From a virus: a stretch of DNA of 52,289 nucleotides. The notes below the pieces were generated by a model. The model was not told the origin of the DNA and searched no databases. It saw only the letters and a program-made list of their open reading frames with translations. The position numbers and the translations under genes were made by a program. The stretch lies in IMG/VR virus record IMGVR_UViG_3300035502_000579, one strand, 5' to 3'. Position 1 is the stretch's first letter; each line of letters opens with the position of its first letter. Below are positions 1 through 52,289 of the stretch, in pieces.

Positions 1-269
1 AACCTGATGGTGCTATTATGACTGATGTACGTATTACCATTTATAGCGGTTTTGTTGACGATCCTGAGTTCCAAGAGCTGTATAAAGATATTTATAAGAG
101 ATATTTTAAGGCTCCTATTGAATGTTTCCATCGTCTGTGGCGAGAAGATATTTATTATATCAATTGTGAAGATTGTACGCCTGAAGGTCTTTATAAACTT
201 TTTGGATTTAATTCTATTGAAGAAGTAGAAGATTATGATGCTTATTTAATCTCTAAGGATGAAGATTGA
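1..269 (+). CDS. hypothetical protein, 5'-partial (frame open to window edge)
   Basis: reading frame open from nt 3 with no upstream stop; ends TAA 267-269. Confidence 0.4.
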   Translation, partial: PDGAIMTDVRITIYSGFVDDPEFQELYKDIYKRYFKAPIECFHRLWREDIYYINCEDCTPEGLYKLFGFNSIEEVEDYDAYLISKDED

Positions 270-294
270 TTTTTATTAAAAAATAATATATAAT
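266..294 (+). promoter_or_regulatory. sigma70-type promoter (repeated family)
   Basis: TTGATT 266-271, 17-nt spacer, TATAAT 289-294; AG-rich leader follows. Confidence 0.55.
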
Positions 295-350
295 ATATAC
301 AGAAGTTAAGAAAAGAAACATTTTATAAAAGAAAGGTTAAGGTGTAATTT

Positions 351-758
351 ATGGAAAATCGTATTACTAAGCGTGAGATTTATGTACAGTTAGTTCATTT
401 CGCAGAGACTGGTGAGATGGATCTGAGTGTCGATGAACTCAAGGAGTTCGCGGAAAAGGAAATCGCTCTTCTTGATAAGAAGGCTGCCAAGGCAAAGGAA
501 ACTGCTGCTAAGAAGCGTGCGGAAGGTGATGAGCTGACTGATGCTGTTCGCGCAGTGCTGTCTCCTGATGAGTTCCAGCCCATTGCCGACATTGCAGCTC
601 GCATTGAGGGTTCCGATGTAACGGTGGCTAAGGTTACTTACCGACTGACTCAGCTGGTGAAGAATGGCGAGGCTGAAAAGCAGGAGGTTACTCTTCCCGC
701 TCCTGAAGATGGAGGTAAGGGACGCAAGGTACAGGGATACCGAGCAATTATTCAGTAA
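351..758 (+). CDS. hypothetical protein (135 aa)
   Basis: ATG after SD AAAGGTTAAGG; stop TAA; terminator follows. Confidence 0.6.
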   Translation: MENRITKREIYVQLVHFAETGEMDLSVDELKEFAEKEIALLDKKAAKAKETAAKKRAEGDELTDAVRAVLSPDEFQPIADIAARIEGSDVTVAKVTYRLTQLVKNGEAEKQEVTLPAPEDGGKGRKVQGYRAIIQ

Positions 759-771
759 CTCTATATGCACT

Positions 772-806
772 AAAAACGCTCTCTTCGGAGAGCGTTTTTC
801 TTTTTA
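772..806 (+). terminator. rho-independent terminator
   Basis: AAAAACGCTCTC-TTCG-GAGAGCGTTTTT hairpin plus T-run. Confidence 0.7.
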
Positions 807-875
807 TGCTGGGTCGCGCGGCACCGGCTGCCACAATCGAAAACCCAAACGAAAATTGCCTTTTAGATATTTTTG

Positions 876-904
876 TTGACATTATTCTAAAATAATGTTA
901 CAAT
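876..904 (+). promoter_or_regulatory. sigma70-type promoter
   Basis: TTGACA 876-881, 17-nt spacer, TGTTACAAT ending 904. Confidence 0.5.
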
Positions 905-919
905 ATAATAAAAAGGAGA

Positions 920-49136: not shown

Positions 49137-50093
49137 TTGATTGGAATAATTTGTCTGTTGATTGGACTTATAATAGGCGCGATTGTTGTATATACAATTC
49201 AACAGCCAAAGGTGAAAACAACTTAGAAACTTGATACAGAGATAATAAAATAGAATCAAGCTTTATAGGTTGAATTAGCGTCTTTGAGTACTAAAAAAGA
49301 AGAAGTCCAATCAAGCATTTAGTCTTTAAAAGAACAAGCAAATACTGCTGCTGAAGAATTTAATAAAAATGCAAAAGAACTTGCAGAAGAAAAATTTAAA
49401 AAACAAATTGCTTCTATGGATAAAGCTTGCGAAATTCATTAGAGAGAATGCAATTCTCAATATTTGGAAATTTTGGAAGATTTAGCCAGCAGCACCCAAA
49501 AGTAGATTCAATCTTATAAAGATTCAGTTATAAATTATGAAACTACTATAAAATAGCTTGAATCAAAAATTAAAGACCAAGAAGCTATTATGTCTGCGGC
49601 AGTCGCTGTAAATATACGAGCCGCAGAAATGGATAATAAACAAGATTTTTACCGTTTAAATCTTTCTTCTGAAGATATAAGTGAAATTAAACGATTAAGA
49701 GAAGTAACTCCTTATTTAAGAAATAGTGAACCTCTTAATAAAGTAATCTGGAAAACTTATTATGAAAAAGCTTATACTGATTTAATTGGACGAGTTGTTG
49801 GCTCTGGAGTCCATACTGGTATTTATAAGATAACCAATATTGAAAATAAGATGTGTTATGTCGGATAGAGTGTGGATATCGCCGAACGGTGGAAGCAGCA
49901 CATTAAGCGTGGTATTGGCGCAGAAGCCCCAACTCGCAATAAGTTGTATCCAGCTATGCTTGCTGTTGGAGTTGAAAATTTTACTTTTGAAATTATTGAA
50001 GAATGTGATCGCTCTTTATTAAATGAAAGAGAGCAATACTGGACTAGCTTTTTAAAAGCCAAAGAGTTCGGATATAGTATGAGAAGTGGTTAA
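49137..50093 (+). CDS. membrane-anchored coiled-coil protein with C-terminal GIY-YIG nuclease domain (TAG-recoded)
   Basis: SD AAGGAG then TTG 49137; N-terminal TM helix LIGIICLLIGLIIGAIVVY; coiled-coil; C-terminal GIYKITNIENKMCYVG-Q-SVDIAERWKQH where Q is TAG; 9 in-frame TAG; TAA 50091-50093. Track ORFs 49590-49868 and 49872-50093 are the 3' part. Confidence 0.6.
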
Positions 50094-50095
50094 AA

Positions 50096-51022
50096 ATGCC
50101 GAAATTAAAAGATTTAACAGGATAGAGTTTTGGAAGATTAGTAGTATTATATCAAGCTGATTCTAAAAATAAACGAGTTTATTGGCATTGCCGGTGTTCT
50201 TGTGGAAGAGAAATTGATATACGAGCTGATAGTTTAACTAGCGGTAATACTGTTAGTTGCGGTTGCTATCTTAAAGAGACAGCCTCAAGATTAGGGAAAA
50301 AATTAAAATTAGATTTAACAGGACAAAGGTTTAATAGATTAATAGTATTAGAAGAAGATTTTTCAAAAAAACGAGTTGCTTGGAAGTGTTAGTGTGATTG
50401 TGGGAATACAACGATAGTTACATCTGATGCTTTAAGAGGCGGTACAACTTAGAGTTGTGGATGCCTTTAGAGAGAAAGAGCTATTGAGGCAAATAAAAAA
50501 GAAATTCATACTCCACGAATAAATATTATCAATAAACGTTTTGGTAAATTAACTGTTATTGAAATCTATAAATATCAAGATAATGATATGTTTTATAAAT
50601 GTAGGTGTGATTGTGGTAATATAGCAATAGTTAGTGGCACACATCTTAGAAGTGGTCATACTTTATCATGTGGTTGTATAAAAAGTTCTTATTACGCTTC
50701 TTTAATAGGTAATATTTTAGAAGAATTAAACATCCCATATGAGAAAGAACGTACTTTTAAAACCTGCATAAATCCAAAAACTAATAATAAATTAAGATTT
50801 GATTTCTATATAGATAATAAAATTTTATTAGAATATGATGGTATTTAGCATTTCAAAGATTCACCAATATTAAAAGAATATTAGTATAGAGATAATATAA
50901 AAAATGAATGGTGTAAGCAAGAAGGAATTCCTTTAATAAGAATTTCTTATAAAGAAAATAAAAATATCAATATAGATTATATAAAAAGTATTCTTAAAGA
51001 ATACGGATATAGTATAAAATAA
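50096..51022 (+). CDS. putative endonuclease, paralog of 1845-2765 (Cys-rich repeat modules + Vsr/DUF559-like motif), TAG-recoded
   Basis: repeats LTG-Q(TAG)-SFGRL, LTGQRFNRL, FGKLTVI; W.C.CDCG/SCGC modules; C-terminal FDFYIDNKILLEYDGI-Q(TAG)-HF; 308 aa with 8 TAG; TAA 51020-51022. Confidence 0.6.
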
Positions 51023-51035
51023 AGGAGAATACTAT

Positions 51036-51311
51036 ATGTATAGAATCATCGATAGTCGAGCTTCTGGAAAGACAAGTAGATTAATGCTTCTTGCAAAAGA
51101 GAGTAATTCTATTATTGCGTGTAGTAACCCATATGCAATGGAAACTAAGGCTCATGCGTATGGTGTTACAGGTATTAATTTTATTTCTTATGAAGATTAT
51201 ACTGCACATAATTATCCAAAAGATAGCTCAGTACTTGTAGATGAATTAGAATGTTATGTACGTTCTTTAGGAAATAATTTAAATGGATATACATTGAGTA
51301 ATGAGGATTGA
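51036..51311 (+). CDS. small P-loop-containing hypothetical protein
   Basis: SD AAAGGAG; DSRASGKTS Walker-A-like; stop TGA. Confidence 0.4.
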   Translation: MYRIIDSRASGKTSRLMLLAKESNSIIACSNPYAMETKAHAYGVTGINFISYEDYTAHNYPKDSSVLVDELECYVRSLGNNLNGYTLSNED

Positions 51312-51315
51312 GAAA

Positions 51316-51678
51316 ATGGTATTTAATAATGTAAGAGTATATAATTTTGAGCATTCGATATACGGTATGCGCAATCCAAAGAATAGCTGGGATTTGTCTG
51401 ATAGCACTTTTGGATTGTGCCAATATGATTTTATTCCTGGGATTATTGAAGATATGTGGTCTGCATATAATGATAATACTCCTATGACCGATGAAGATTA
51501 TTTGGAATATGAACAAAATGTACTTATTCATAATGATGAAGATATTTGGGAATTTGCGGCTATTGGGCCAAAAGATATGAAGCTTGCGCAAACTCTTATT
51601 AAGTCTGGCCCTGAACATCGTAAGTTTTTACGCCAGATTTTTGTCACTGTTGATATTACTGCACCGATTTACTGGTAT
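51316..51678 (+). CDS. ThyX-fold (flavin-dependent thymidylate synthase-like) protein, exon 1
   Basis: SD GAGGA then ATG 51316; LIKSGPEHRKFLRQIFVTVDITAPIYWY parallels ThyX [27 protein letters not shown]; frame then hits TAA and enters a GC-rich structured insert. Confidence 0.45.
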
Positions 51679-51947
51679 TAAGAGAAATTCTTTCTGCCAA
51701 TGAAATGCTTTTCCTATTAACTGATAGGGGTTATCTATTTAGATAGCTAACGGGGAACCACCCATTGGAATCCCGTGGGACTCTTTGTTTAAAAAACAAA
51801 GGGCCTGTAGAGACTATTCCCTAGGCCTTCTGGGCGGGGAAGTAGGGCTGTTATTAGTACACAGCAAGATTTTAGGAAACGAAGTCTTTGAAAACCGAAA
51901 TGGCATCCTTCTATAATAATAGGAGTAAAAGATAGTCCACAAATGGG
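51679..51947 (+). ncRNA. putative group I intron in the ThyX-like gene
   Basis: 269-nt GC-rich insert with local hairpins; contains GTAGAGACTATTCCC..GGGGAAGTAGGGC resembling the group I P7/P9 core; begins right after exon T and ends in G; 5 TAG in 140 nt. Confidence 0.45.
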
Positions 51948-52289
51948 AAAGAATTTGACACCTACAAGATCGGGACAACTGCCAACAGCACCTCCACGAT
52001 GCACAAGCTAAGTAGCAAGCCTATCACTATTGATTGCTTTGAAACAGATGATTATGATAAAACTTTAGATATGATTGATGATTGTCAACTTGGAACTAGA
52101 GTTAATTGTTTTATTAATGACCTTGAGCAGCTTCGTCAAAAATATTTAATGTTAAAAGATGAGGATCCTGTTAAAGCTAAAAAATATTGGAAAGAACTTG
52201 TGCGTTGGCTCCCTGAGAGCTGGCTCCAAACTCGTACAGTTACTATGAATTATGAAAATCTTTTGGCTATTTGTTCCAAGAGTCAGCGT
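51948..52289 (+). CDS. ThyX-fold protein, exon 2 (3'-partial, runs off window)
   Basis: KEFDTYKIGTTANSTSTMHKL continues the ThyX alignment in register (ThyX [21 protein letters not shown]) but RHR and S..RY are replaced; later LPESWLQTRTVTMNYENLL parallels ThyX [22 protein letters not shown]; no stop before window end. Confidence 0.4.

What the first reader, a model, noticed from the sequence alone, without database searches (positions are those of the whole stretch)
1..52289. TAG is read as a sense codon (Gln): a stop-codon-recoded phage
Paralogous modules place TAG where siblings have CAA/CAG. Examples: LTG-TAG-SFGRL (50120) vs LTGQKFG and LTGQRFN; EYDGI-TAG-HF (50843) vs EFDGEQHF (2571); GIY-YIG YVG-TAG-S (49866), where Q is the family consensus. 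Fifteen genes that the standard-code track splits become continuous, recognisable proteins (rSAM, HNH, PIN-PhoH, GIY-YIG, lysin) when TAG is translated. All ~65 genes stop with TAA or TGA, none with TAG. TAG-containing genes are concentrated in homing endonucleases, rSAM genes and the lysis/tail module, while most replication and RNA-repair genes are TAG-free. This matches the reported pattern of recoding in late genes.
Basis: partly seen in the sequence, partly recalled or inferred. Interest (0 to 1): 0.85.

Follow-up and report, generated by a model that had tools for sequence, protein, structure and literature searches.

The report
Phage that reads TAG as glutamine
This 52-kb piece of an uncultivated phage genome uses the stop codon TAG as a glutamine codon in about fifteen genes and carries its own oddly shaped amber-suppressor tRNA; this kind of recoding is already known in gut phages.

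Summary
Reading through TAG, and only TAG, joins about 15 split genes into full-length proteins with homology support. Examples are a CXXX-repeat radical-SAM maturase (10 TAGs), PIN-PhoH, the endolysin, two homing-endonuclease-like paralogues and a GIY-YIG protein.

At 16 TAG sites in three unrelated families, database homologues point to Gln. A Codetta-like score gives Q +51 bits and the runner-up K -26.5; control codons recover their standard meaning. The only strain polymorphisms touching TAG are two TAG<->CAG changes. In relatives (IMG/VR phages with 130-150 kb contigs), in-frame stops in the same genes are TAG 378 times, against TAA 9 and TGA 7.

Thirty-eight genes (10,275 codons; RNA repair, gyrase, ligase, RNase H) have no TAG.

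One new result: an amber-suppressor tRNA(CUA) lies at 18193-18267. ARAGORN and whole-window Rfam scans miss it because its D- and T-loops are non-canonical. It reaches Rfam's tRNA threshold in a local scan. It sits where relatives have a canonical tRNA(CUA) and has its own sigma-70-like promoter.

Corrections: two quoted coordinates are one codon off. Six 'TAGs' at the 3' end lie in an intron-like insertion. The 'tail' label is unsupported.

This is a new member of a known kind (code 15 phages).

The parts
18193..18267 (+). Amber-suppressor tRNA(CUA), 75 nt with encoded CCA. It has a non-canonical D-loop (AGCAGCAA, no GG) and T-loop (GGCAGCA instead of TTCRA), a U1.C72 mismatch and G73.
   Evidence: Found by a custom scan for stem-flanked NTCTARN loops. 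The minimum-free-energy fold is a cloverleaf, -27.3 kcal/mol. Rfam RF00005 scores 31.1 bits (gathering 29), full length, E 4.3e-5 in a 171-nt scan. It is missed by ARAGORN and by whole-window Rfam runs. It is syntenic with tRNA(CUA) in relatives. The same architecture recurs with compensatory stem changes in other contigs.
18133..18161 (+). Sigma-70-like promoter with extended -10 (TTGATT-17-TG-TATAAT), 32 nt upstream of the suppressor tRNA.
   Evidence: 10/12 matches, TG present. TGATATAAT occurs 13 times in the window against 2.4 expected.
5983..7590 (+). Radical-SAM/SPASM peptide maturase of the CXXX-repeat target family; 10 in-frame TAGs.
7592..8179 (+). Cys-rich CXXX-repeat protein, the putative substrate; 1 TAG.
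   Evidence: Translation; TAG count; sits next to the TIGR04115 maturase.
5470..5979 (+). Hypothetical protein upstream of the maturase; 2 TAGs. Codon 5575 is CAG here and TAG in strain variants.
1845..2765 (+). Homing-endonuclease-like paralogue A (zinc-ribbon repeats plus a DUF2726-like nuclease); 8 TAGs. Codon 1941 is TAG here and CAG in strain variants.
   Evidence: phrog_374, phrog_9084.
10470..11219 (+). HNH endonuclease ORF (3 TAGs) inside an 843-nt insertion (10401-11243) that interrupts tRNA-Glu(UUC) right after the anticodon.
   Evidence: The intron-less tRNA-Glu is at L005 17033-17108.
14259..15293 (+). PapB-like rSAM/SPASM maturase 2; 2 TAGs.
15254..16309 (+). rSAM maturase 3; 5 TAGs.
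26863..27207 (+). Small predicted membrane protein; 1 TAG.
36486..37745 (+). PIN-PhoH protein; 1 TAG at 37146 between the two domains. JGI called it as two genes.
   Evidence: Q in 52/52 relatives at that site.
37809..38438 (+). Protein of unknown function next to the lysin; 2 TAGs.
   Evidence: no family match.
38457..38830 (+). Endolysin exon 1 (amidase-like, TTG start); TAGs at 38598 and 38745.
   Evidence: Q 142/142 and 143/148. Splice junction WIQFEI|CEDD confirmed by uninterrupted homologues.
38831..39226 (+). Group I intron splitting the endolysin. The boundaries are inferred from the U / omega-G rule.
   Evidence: Rfam RF00028, 63.2 bits, at 38826-39158.
39227..39776 (+). Endolysin exon 2 (C-terminal part of the catalytic domain plus an SLH-type wall-binding end); no TAG.
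   Evidence: (PF00395 on the JGI gene).
40192..40725 (+). Paralogue T1, unknown function; 2 TAGs.
40757..41280 (+). Paralogue T2. The frame is broken at a 9-G tract (40877-40885). It has one in-frame TAG at 41230, followed by a C-terminus (IEVIQYKYS) conserved with T1.
49137..50093 (+). Coiled-coil plus GIY-YIG protein; 8 TAGs, including the catalytic YVG-TAG-S at 49866. Conserved in 171 related loci.
   Evidence: (Q 39, TAG 28, S 5).
50096..51022 (+). Homing-endonuclease-like paralogue B; 6 TAGs.
8263..19448 (+). tRNA array of about 19 genes. It includes tRNA-Gln(UUG) at 13257-13330 and a second non-canonical-elbow tRNA (UGU) at 11793-11866.
19848..35568 (+). RNA-repair/conflict block: DUF2828/DUF7788, MVP-like, metallophosphatases, cREC, RNase T, intein-containing RNA ligase, macro, kinase, flotillin. 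It carries one in-frame TAG in all, in the small membrane protein 26863-27207 listed above; every annotated repair gene has none.
41636..48448 (+). TAG-free replication block (RNase H, GyrB, GyrA, NAD-dependent DNA ligase).
51669..51945 (+). Structured 277-nt intron-like insertion in a conserved gene. It holds six non-coding TAG triplets.
   Evidence: no Rfam hit; MFE -79 kcal/mol; L001 encodes the uninterrupted 271-aa protein.

Best explanation
The window is part of an uncultivated tailed phage of low G+C. Its full genome is probably about 130-150 kb, and its host is probably a member of the Clostridia. TAG has been reassigned from stop to glutamine in this phage (translation table 15).

Decoding is most likely carried out by a phage-encoded tRNA(CUA) at 18193-18267. 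This tRNA is transcribed from its own host-type promoter and is presumably charged through the host's glutamine pathway.

Genes needed before the suppressor accumulates contain no TAG, so they can be translated under the host's standard code. These are the RNA-repair genes, gyrase, ligase and RNase H. The endolysin, homing endonucleases, rSAM/RiPP-like clusters and some small proteins carry 1-10 TAGs each, so they yield full-length product only once suppression is efficient.

What is shown: TAG is a sense codon; it corresponds to Gln; a cloverleaf tRNA with anticodon CUA is present; TAG is unevenly distributed among genes.

What is inferred: the tRNA is expressed and charged with Gln; the pattern serves as temporal control.
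For: (1) ORF continuity. Only TAG interrupts these frames: 54-55 in-frame TAGs against no TAA or TGA. The frames span family models end to end: TIGR04115 at 350.6 bits across seven masked TAGs; Radical_SAM, PIN+PhoH and GIY-YIG domains.

(2) Amino-acid identity. Q dominates the conserved columns of three unrelated families. The pooled score is Q +51 bits against K -26.5, and 17 control codons all recover their standard meaning. Q is 52/52 at the PhoH site, and Q or TAG at the GIY-YIG catalytic site in relatives.

(3) Population evidence. The only substitutions touching TAG codons between 98-99%-identical contigs are TAG->CAG at 1941 and CAG->TAG at 5575.

(4) Clade evidence. In-frame stops in homologous genes of relatives are TAG 378, TAA 9, TGA 7. 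They align most often with Q or TAG in the window.

(5) Composition. Counting TAG as Gln raises Gln content in the recoded genes from 2.3% to 3.65%, compared with 3.2% in TAG-free genes.

(6) Suppressor tRNA. See (Rfam 31.1 bits, above the gathering score of 29; same place in the tRNA array as tRNA(CUA) of relatives). Searches show the same unusual loops in six other tRNAs with 20 of 21 stem pairs covarying. One search shows the promoter.

(7) The same TAGs appear in independent assemblies from several JGI samples and two SRA runs. The Logan gene caller had already translated one gene with Q at each TAG.

(8) The pattern matches published recoded phages (bioRxiv 10.1101/2021.08.26.457843; PMC9523058; PMC10607447).
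Against: There is no protein-level evidence for this phage.

The suppressor tRNA lacks the conserved G18 G19 / T54-Psi55-C56 elbow and scores only 2 bits above Rfam's threshold. A decaying pseudogene cannot be fully excluled on sequence alone. The perfect stems and the recurrence of the same loops with compensatory changes argue against that.

The seven-sequence covariation set was chosen with a filter that required paired stems, so its percentage of paired cells is inflated.

Gln charging is inferred only from U1, G10, G73, U35 and the homologue columns.

No release factor 2 gene or aminoacyl-tRNA synthetase gene was seen. Only about 81 kb of the genome was inspected, and not every ORF was searched.

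Temporal regulation is untested, and the suppressor's promoter looks like an ordinary host-type promoter rather than a late one.

Some database homologues may themselves have been translated with table 15. This cannot explain 117/120 or 142/142.

'TAG never terminates' is partly circular: for three genes a TAG lies 4-16 codons before the TAA, and it could act as the stop in two of them.
Confidence: 0.9

Rival explanations
1. The TAG-bearing genes are decaying pseudogenes (dead homing endonucleases and accessory genes). Their TAGs would be ordinary nonsense mutations and the proteins would not be made.
For: Several carriers are selfish or accessory genes. One paralogue (T2) does carry a real frameshift at a poly-G tract.
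Against: All 54-55 interruptions are TAG and none is TAA or TGA. They fall on columns where homologues have Gln. The essential endolysin and a gene conserved in 171 related loci are affected. Relatives have TAG at the same positions. The sequence between TAGs stays conserved enough for full-length family matches.
Confidence: 0.02
2. TAG is a sense codon but encodes something other than glutamine, such as pyrrolysine, lysine, glutamate, tyrosine or tryptophan. A non-canonical CUA tRNA is reminiscent of tRNA-Pyl.
For: ARAGORN labels every CUA tRNA as 'Pyl'. The suppressor lacks G18 G19 and T-Psi-C, as tRNA-Pyl does (PMC7609411). At a few variable columns K or E is commonest.
Against: The pooled log-odds are Q +51 bits, K -26.5, R -38.8. 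Strain polymorphisms are TAG<->CAG only. The tRNA has normal arm lengths (2-nt connector, 8-nt D-loop, 5-bp anticodon stem, 4-nt variable loop), unlike tRNA-Pyl. No PylS-like match appeared in any family scan.
Confidence: 0.03
3. TAG remains a stop in this system. The long frames are produced by inefficient near-cognate read-through (for example by tRNA-Gln UUG/CUG), without a dedicated suppressor.
For: Standard tools find no CUA tRNA. A normal tRNA-Gln(UUG) is encoded at 13257-13330.
Against: Up to 10 TAGs per gene would make the yield vanishingly small at natural read-through rates (established knowledge). A cloverleaf CUA tRNA with its own promoter is present. Relatives carry canonical CUA tRNAs at the same locus.
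Confidence: 0.03
4. The TAGs are an assembly or sequencing artefact, or the window is a chimera of contigs from organisms with different codes.
For: The window comes from metagenomic data. Recoded and non-recoded genes differ in G+C (29.6% against 34.7%).
Against: The same sequence, TAGs included, was assembled independently in several JGI samples and two SRA runs at 98-100% identity, and those contigs bridge both gene classes. Recoded and TAG-free genes are interleaved along the window.
Confidence: 0.01

Closest known systems
TAG->Gln (translation table 15) recoded gut phages: crAss-like, Lak, and the Garnet/Amethyst/Agate and other clades (Borges et al., bioRxiv 10.1101/2021.08.26.457843; metaproteomic validation in Peters et al. 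2022, PMC9523058)
   Same: In-frame TAG at Gln positions; low G+C; a phage-encoded tRNA(CUA). Replication genes are compatible with the standard code, while lysis genes and an intron endonuclease are recoded. The proposed role is timing of late and lytic gene expression.
   Different: There is no detectable nucleotide or close protein match to GenBank phages. Clade membership (for example Agate, about 154 kb) could not be tested. No RF2 was seen. The suppressor tRNA has a non-canonical elbow. The most heavily recoded genes here are rSAM/RiPP-like clusters and endonucleases rather than capsid or tail genes, which lie outside the window.
phAss-1 / proposed Phassvirus (Babkin et al. 2023, PMC10607447): about 136-kb human-gut siphophages with TAG in 41 ORFs and 2-3 tRNA-Sup-CTA genes
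   Same: Similar genome size among relatives; large tRNA sets; TAG->Gln in roughly a quarter of ORFs; no dedicated aminoacyl-tRNA synthetase.
   Different: The best GyrA match in the GenBank phage collection is only 36% identical. That collection was not checked for phAss-1 itself, so non-membership in the genus rests on this search alone.
E. coli supE (tRNA-Gln with CUA anticodon), the classical Gln-inserting amber suppressor
   Same: A Gln-type tRNA body with anticodon CUA; weak or absent 1:72 pair, G10, G73, U35 (identity elements from established knowledge).
   Different: The pair at 3:70 is C-G and position 38 is A. The D- and T-loops are non-canonical. In Clostridia, charging would run through non-discriminating GluRS plus GatCAB rather than GlnRS (inference).
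tRNA-Pyl (CUA anticodon, no G18 G19 or T-Psi-C; PMC7609411)
   Same: CUA anticodon and loss of the conserved D-loop/T-loop contacts.
   Different: Arm and loop lengths are standard here, no Pyl machinery was found, and homologue columns say Gln.

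Membership tests
Stop-codon-recoded phage, TAG->Gln (table 15) | In-frame TAG inside genes whose homology continues in the same frame on both sides | tested here: met
   (for example TIGR04115 end to end across seven TAGs; PIN+PhoH joined).
Stop-codon-recoded phage, TAG->Gln (table 15) | TAG positions align with Gln in homologues (Codetta-type inference) | tested here: met
   Q +51 bits over 16 sites, next best K -26.5; control codons come out correctly.
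Stop-codon-recoded phage, TAG->Gln (table 15) | TAG is not used as a terminator | tested here: inconclusive
   The terminators of the 52 curated genes with a stop codon are TAA 44 and TGA 8. However, ORFs were defined by reading through TAG. For rSAM-1 (TAG 4 codons before the TAA) and rSAM-2 (TAG 10 codons before it), the TAG could be the stop. For T2 the sequence after the TAG is conserved.
Stop-codon-recoded phage, TAG->Gln (table 15) | Phage-encoded suppressor tRNA with anticodon CUA | tested here: met
   18193-18267: RF00005 31.1 bits, above the gathering score of 29; synteny with tRNA(CUA) in relatives; covariation. Expression and charging were not tested.
Stop-codon-recoded phage, TAG->Gln (table 15) | Recoding concentrated in late/lysis/structural genes, with early genes compatible with the standard code | tested here: inconclusive
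   The lysin is recoded, and the replication and RNA-repair genes are TAG-free (P = 5e-18). No capsid, portal, terminase or confirmed tail gene is in the window, and no expression timing is known.
Stop-codon-recoded phage, TAG->Gln (table 15) | Gln found at TAG positions in the proteins themselves | not testable with these tools
   Needs LC-MS/MS, as in PMC9523058.
Stop-codon-recoded phage, TAG->Gln (table 15) | Accessory code-change genes (RF2, aaRS); optional, present in a minority of known cases | tested here: not met
   No such domain appeared in the Pfam, NCBIfam or PHROG scans of window genes. The rest of the genome was not seen. This is not a required feature.
Canonical bacterial/phage tRNA (Rfam RF00005) | Cloverleaf scoring at or above the gathering threshold | tested here: met
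   31.1 bits against 29, model positions 1-71.
Canonical bacterial/phage tRNA (Rfam RF00005) | Conserved elbow: G18 G19 in the D-loop and T54-Psi55-C56 (TTCRA) in the T-loop | tested here: not met
   The D-loop is AGCAGCAA and the T-loop is GGCAGCA. Six other phage tRNAs share these loops.
tRNA-Pyl / pyrrolysine decoding | Short D-loop, 1-nt connector, 6-bp anticodon stem, 3-nt variable loop, and pylS/pylBCD genes | tested here: not met
   Standard arm lengths; no Pyl gene match in any scan; homologue columns are Gln.

The most novel reading that the evidence does not exclude
The suppressor belongs to a phage tRNA architecture that I did not find described in three literature searches. It is a normal cloverleaf whose D-loop (A-x-CAG-x-A, no GG) and T-loop (GGCRGCA, no T-Psi-C) are replaced together. 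It recurs with at least four anticodons (CUA, UUG, UGU, GCA) in unrelated IMG/VR contigs, and standard tRNA finders miss it.

If this elbow is functional, two things could follow. It could explain why many recoded phages appear to lack a suppressor tRNA. It could also make these tRNAs insensitive to host enzymes or defence nucleases that recognise the canonical elbow.
Probability: 0.3. Interest if true: 0.6.

Novelty: new member of a known kind. Interest (0 to 1): 0.4.

Why it matters
On the practical side, any annotation of this phage and its relatives (130-150 kb contigs in IMG/VR) under table 11 fragments about a quarter of the genes. JGI split PIN-PhoH in two. The lysin, the RiPP-like rSAM clusters and the endonucleases only make sense under table 15.

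On the biological side, this adds a lineage, probably infecting Clostridia, to the recoded phages. It also shows the expected split between TAG-free replication/RNA-repair genes and TAG-rich lysis and selfish genes.

The one point that goes beyond the literature I read is that the suppressor tRNA is structurally atypical and escapes ARAGORN and default Rfam scans. Borges et al. predicted this kind of blind spot, and it may lead surveys to under-count suppressor tRNAs.

Tried and rejected
- Megablast of 24 kb against GenBank phages found nothing. tblastn with GyrA found nothing above 36% identity.
- PDB sequence searches for PhoH and the lysin were uninformative for the TAG sites. The PhoH alignment starts just after the TAG, and the lysin has no hit.
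- ARAGORN at default and lowered thresholds, with and without introns, and Rfam gathering and E-value scans of the whole window all missed the CUA tRNA.
- I walked the genome for a suppressor 9.6 kb upstream (L004) and about 19 kb downstream (L001, L114, L188) and found no tRNA there. One upstream walk found no locus, and a kinase-based walk gave only three loci.
- tRNA 'Asn(AUU)' at 8263-8337, the anticodon-arm-less tRNA-like element at 9453-9522 and the 94-nt UAU tRNA at 12127-12220 were considered as disguised suppressors. I rejected them because no register gives CUA.
- Rfam found no group I model in the tRNA-Glu insertion or in the 51669-51945 insertion.
- P0121 (98% identical by BLASTP because the six TAG sites were masked; identical at all other positions, with Q at every TAG) turned out to be this same phage translated with a TAG=Q gene model. 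It was excluded as non-independent.
- Error on my side: proteins 7, 8 and 9 were mistyped and are not window sequence. Their hits, including Choline_bind_4, are void.
- The pattern scan returned mostly chance matches. Only two loci passed the cloverleaf filter.

Full report
**What the window is**

The window is 52,289 nt with 33% G+C. GC skew is positive throughout and essentially all genes are on the + strand. It holds an array of about 19 tRNA genes at 8.2-19.5 kb. It also holds two radical-SAM/RiPP-like clusters, a large RNA-repair/conflict block, an endolysin split by a group I intron, and a replication block.
- The RNA-repair block comprises DUF2828/DUF7788, a major-vault-protein-like protein, three metallophosphatases, cREC, RNase T, an RNA ligase carrying a LAGLIDADG intein, a macro domain, an AAA_33 kinase and a flotillin.
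- The replication block comprises RNase H, GyrB, GyrA and an NAD-dependent ligase.

Identical or 98-99%-identical contigs occur in several JGI metagenomes and two SRA runs. Relatives with 50-69% identical GyrA sit on IMG/VR contigs of 130-150 kb. Three relatives were binned into Eubacterium, Clostridia and Acutalibacteraceae MAGs. No GenBank phage is close.

**Checking the observation**

I read the + strand with only TAA and TGA as stops. That produces long frames containing many TAGs: 1797-2765 (8), 5980-7590 (10), 15239-16309 (5), 49104-50093 (8) and 50027-51022 (8). Under the standard code, every ORF that ends in TAG is followed at once by another ORF in the same frame.

In a curated set of 53 genes, 15 carry 54-55 in-frame TAGs in about 3,950 codons, with no in-frame TAA or TGA. 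The other 38 genes (10,275 codons) carry none; under a uniform rate P = 5e-18. TAG is as common as expected in the other two frames of both sets.

Two are offset by one codon: the TAGs are at 50123 and 50846. The one at 49866 is exact.

**Is TAG translated, and as what?**

I masked TAG as X so that the searches could not be biased toward Q.

- *Maturase (5983-7590).* It has 2,607 database relatives with E-values down to 1e-128, aligned across the TAGs. In the 120 best, the four TAGs in conserved columns face Q in 117, 117, 85 and 111 sequences. The other aligned TAGs fall in variable columns. The protein still matches NCBIfam TIGR04115 end to end (350.6 bits, cut-off 350).
- *Nuclease paralogue B.* Homologues give Q 100/119 and 77/119. 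Q is the commonest residue at three further sites, and K is commonest at one.
- *Endolysin.* I joined the exons across the intron and searched 1.84 billion cluster representatives. Q is 142/142 and 143/148 at the two TAG sites, and the alignments run uninterrupted through the predicted splice junction WIQFEI|CEDD.
- *Pooled score.* Over the 16 aligned sites, a Codetta-like log-odds gives Q +51 bits, K -26.5 and R -38.8. The same procedure assigns CAA, AAA, GAA, TAT, TGG and twelve other control codons their standard meaning.

Other lines agree. Between 98-99%-identical strain contigs, the only substitutions that touch a TAG codon are TAG->CAG at 1941 and CAG->TAG at 5575. In related phages, the PhoH TAG site is Q in 52/52. 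The GIY-YIG catalytic site is Q (39) or an in-frame stop (28). Of all in-frame stops inside homologous alignments, 378 are TAG, 9 TAA and 7 TGA. So the whole clade is recoded. Paralogue T2 keeps the conserved C-terminus IEV(I/V)QYKYS after its TAG.

One apparent full-length homologue with Q at every TAG (P0121) is this same phage, translated by the Logan pipeline with a TAG=Q model. It was excluded as non-independent. It does show that an automatic gene caller had already chosen the recoded model.

**How TAG is decoded**

Standard tools report no CUA tRNA in the window or in 29 kb of flanks. Relatives do have one. Phages sharing the DUF2828 gene carry tRNA(CUA) in their arrays. In three contigs, two of them GyrA relatives, the gene order is: Rv2632c-like gene, tRNA-Ser(UGA), tRNA(CUA), homologue of window gene 18640-18978, DUF2828, MVP.

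In the window, three rSAM genes and a Cys/Thr-rich protein are inserted after tRNA-Ser(UGA). A custom scan for stem-flanked NTCTARN loops found one candidate in the 423-nt gap that follows, at 18193-18267. Its properties are as follows.
- Its minimum-free-energy fold is a cloverleaf at -27.3 kcal/mol.
- It shares the acceptor stem (TGCGG.../...CCGC-N-G-CCA) and the anticodon arm with the syntenic tRNA(CUA) of relatives.
- In a local Rfam scan it matches RF00005 over its full length at 31.1 bits, above the gathering score of 29.
- It is preceded by TTGATT-17-TG-TATAAT, one of ten such extended -10 promoters on the + strand.
- Its D-loop (AGCAGCAA) lacks G18 G19 and its T-loop is GGCAGCA. That explains why the tRNA finders fail.

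The same pair of loops occurs in six other tRNAs:
- two more with CUA (L493, L412);
- one with UUG (L335);
- two with GCA (L105, L110);
- the window's own UGU tRNA at 11793-11866.

Across these seven tRNAs, 20 of 21 stem pairs change on both sides. 92.5% of cells are paired, against at most 42% when the partners are slid. These sequences were selected with a stem-pairing filter, so the paired percentage is inflated. The variety of pair types around invariant loops is the informative part.

U1 opposite C72, G10, G73 and U35 fit a Gln-type body, as in supE (established knowledge). Charging with Gln is an inference.

**Distribution and likely logic**

TAG-free genes are the RNA-repair block, gyrase, ligase, RNase H, rSAM-4 and the intein-containing RNA ligase.

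TAG-bearing genes are:
- the endolysin;
- two homing-endonuclease-like paralogues (PHROG HNH / homing endonuclease);
- the HNH ORF inside an intron that splits tRNA-Glu(UUC); the intron-less allele is seen in L005;
- three rSAM genes and the CXXX-repeat protein;
- PIN-PhoH;
- a conserved GIY-YIG protein;
- several small proteins.

In the recoded genes, TAG supplies 37.5% of Gln-equivalent codons although G-ending codons are otherwise rare there (GC3 17%). CAG is only 7% of them, against 34% in TAG-free genes.

This matches the published picture: early genes can be read under the host code, while lysis genes and intron endonucleases are gated by suppression (bioRxiv 10.1101/2021.08.26.457843; PMC10607447; proteomic proof in crAss-like phages, PMC9523058). 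Timing itself is untested here. The window has no capsid, portal or terminase genes.

**Corrections and caveats**

- The six TAGs of ORF 51654-52289 lie in a structured 277-nt intron-like insertion that is absent from L001. They are non-coding.
- T2 is broken at a 9-G tract, and its first 'TAG' is out of frame.
- 'No gene ends in TAG' is partly circular, because ORFs were defined by read-through.
- Proteins 7-9 were mistyped by me and must be ignored.

**Comparison with the known, and verdict**

This works like table-15 phages and meets their defining features as far as they can be tested in silico. Protein-level proof is missing, and membership of a named clade could not be tested. It is a new member of a known kind. 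The modestly new element is the suppressor tRNA with a non-canonical elbow, which is part of a recurring phage tRNA architecture that standard finders miss.

Noticed in passing
window 11793-11866 and 18193-18267; L493, L412, L335, L105, L110: A recurring phage tRNA architecture: a normal cloverleaf, but with D-loop A-x-CAG-x-A (no GG) and T-loop GGCRGCA (no T-Psi-C). It is seen with anticodons CUA, UUG, UGU and GCA. Stems covary while the loops stay invariant, and ARAGORN misses most of them.
   Followed up: partly
window 10401-11243: An 843-nt insertion carrying an HNH endonuclease ORF splits tRNA-Glu(UUC) right after the anticodon. A 98%-identical strain (L005 17033-17108) has the uninterrupted tRNA. 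It is probably a mobile group I-type intron, but no Rfam model matches.
   Followed up: partly
window 38831-39226: A group I intron (Rfam RF00028, 63 bits) splits the endolysin gene within the catalytic domain. Homologues align straight across the junction WIQFEI|CEDD.
   Followed up: yes
window 51669-51945: A highly structured 277-nt insertion (MFE -79 kcal/mol) interrupts a conserved 271-aa gene that is intact in L001. There is no ORF and no Rfam match. It may be a small ORF-less intron.
   Followed up: partly
window 28719-31124: An RNA ligase (DRB0094-type) carries an intein with a LAGLIDADG endonuclease. It is entirely TAG-free, unlike the free-standing endonucleases.
   Followed up: no
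window 19848-35568: A large TAG-free RNA-repair/conflict module: DUF2828/DUF7788, a major-vault-protein-like protein (MVP shoulder and Vault_3 domains), a nucleotidyltransferase-like protein, three metallophosphatases, cREC_REC, RNase T, macro domain, AAA_33 kinase and flotillin. A weak Y-RNA-like (YrlA) hit lies at 13140-13250 (29.9 bits, below threshold).
   Followed up: partly
window 5470-8179 and 14259-18125: Two phage-borne RiPP-like clusters. The first is a TIGR04115 CXXX-repeat maturase next to a 195-aa protein with about 20 CXXX repeats. The second is three PapB-like rSAM/SPASM enzymes next to a 200-aa Cys/Thr-rich protein. The second cluster is inserted in the tRNA array, where relatives have only tRNA(CUA).
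   Followed up: partly
window 40757-41280 (poly-G at 40877-40885): Paralogue T2 is in frame only if the 9-G tract were 10 G. The same 9 G occur in an independent contig (L001). It is either a phase-variable gene or a pseudogene.
   Followed up: partly
window 9453-9522: A tRNA-like element (Rfam tRNA 43.6 bits) with intact acceptor, D and T arms and an encoded CCA. Its anticodon arm is reduced to about 10 nt, so it has no usable anticodon.
   Followed up: no
window 8263-8337 and 12127-12220: Two odd tRNAs. One has anticodon AUU (called 'Asn'). The other is 94 nt with a long variable arm and anticodon UAU; a class II body with an Ile-type anticodon is unusual.
   Followed up: no
window, 10 sites on the + strand (for example 10176, 13731, 18153, 18289, 18468, 27323, 31998, 41361, 48474, 48726): The extended -10 motif TGATATAAT is over-represented: 13 sites in all against 2.4 expected. 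The sites lie upstream of tRNAs and of several TAG-free genes and look like host-type promoters.
   Followed up: partly
L276 c[3019-3112] and c[3541-3613]; L279 c[1226-1316] and c[1320-1394]; L111 4532-4626: Some related contigs carry two CUA tRNAs side by side. One is of normal length and one is 91-95 nt with a long variable arm. This raises the possibility of a second amino-acid identity for TAG in those phages.
   Followed up: no
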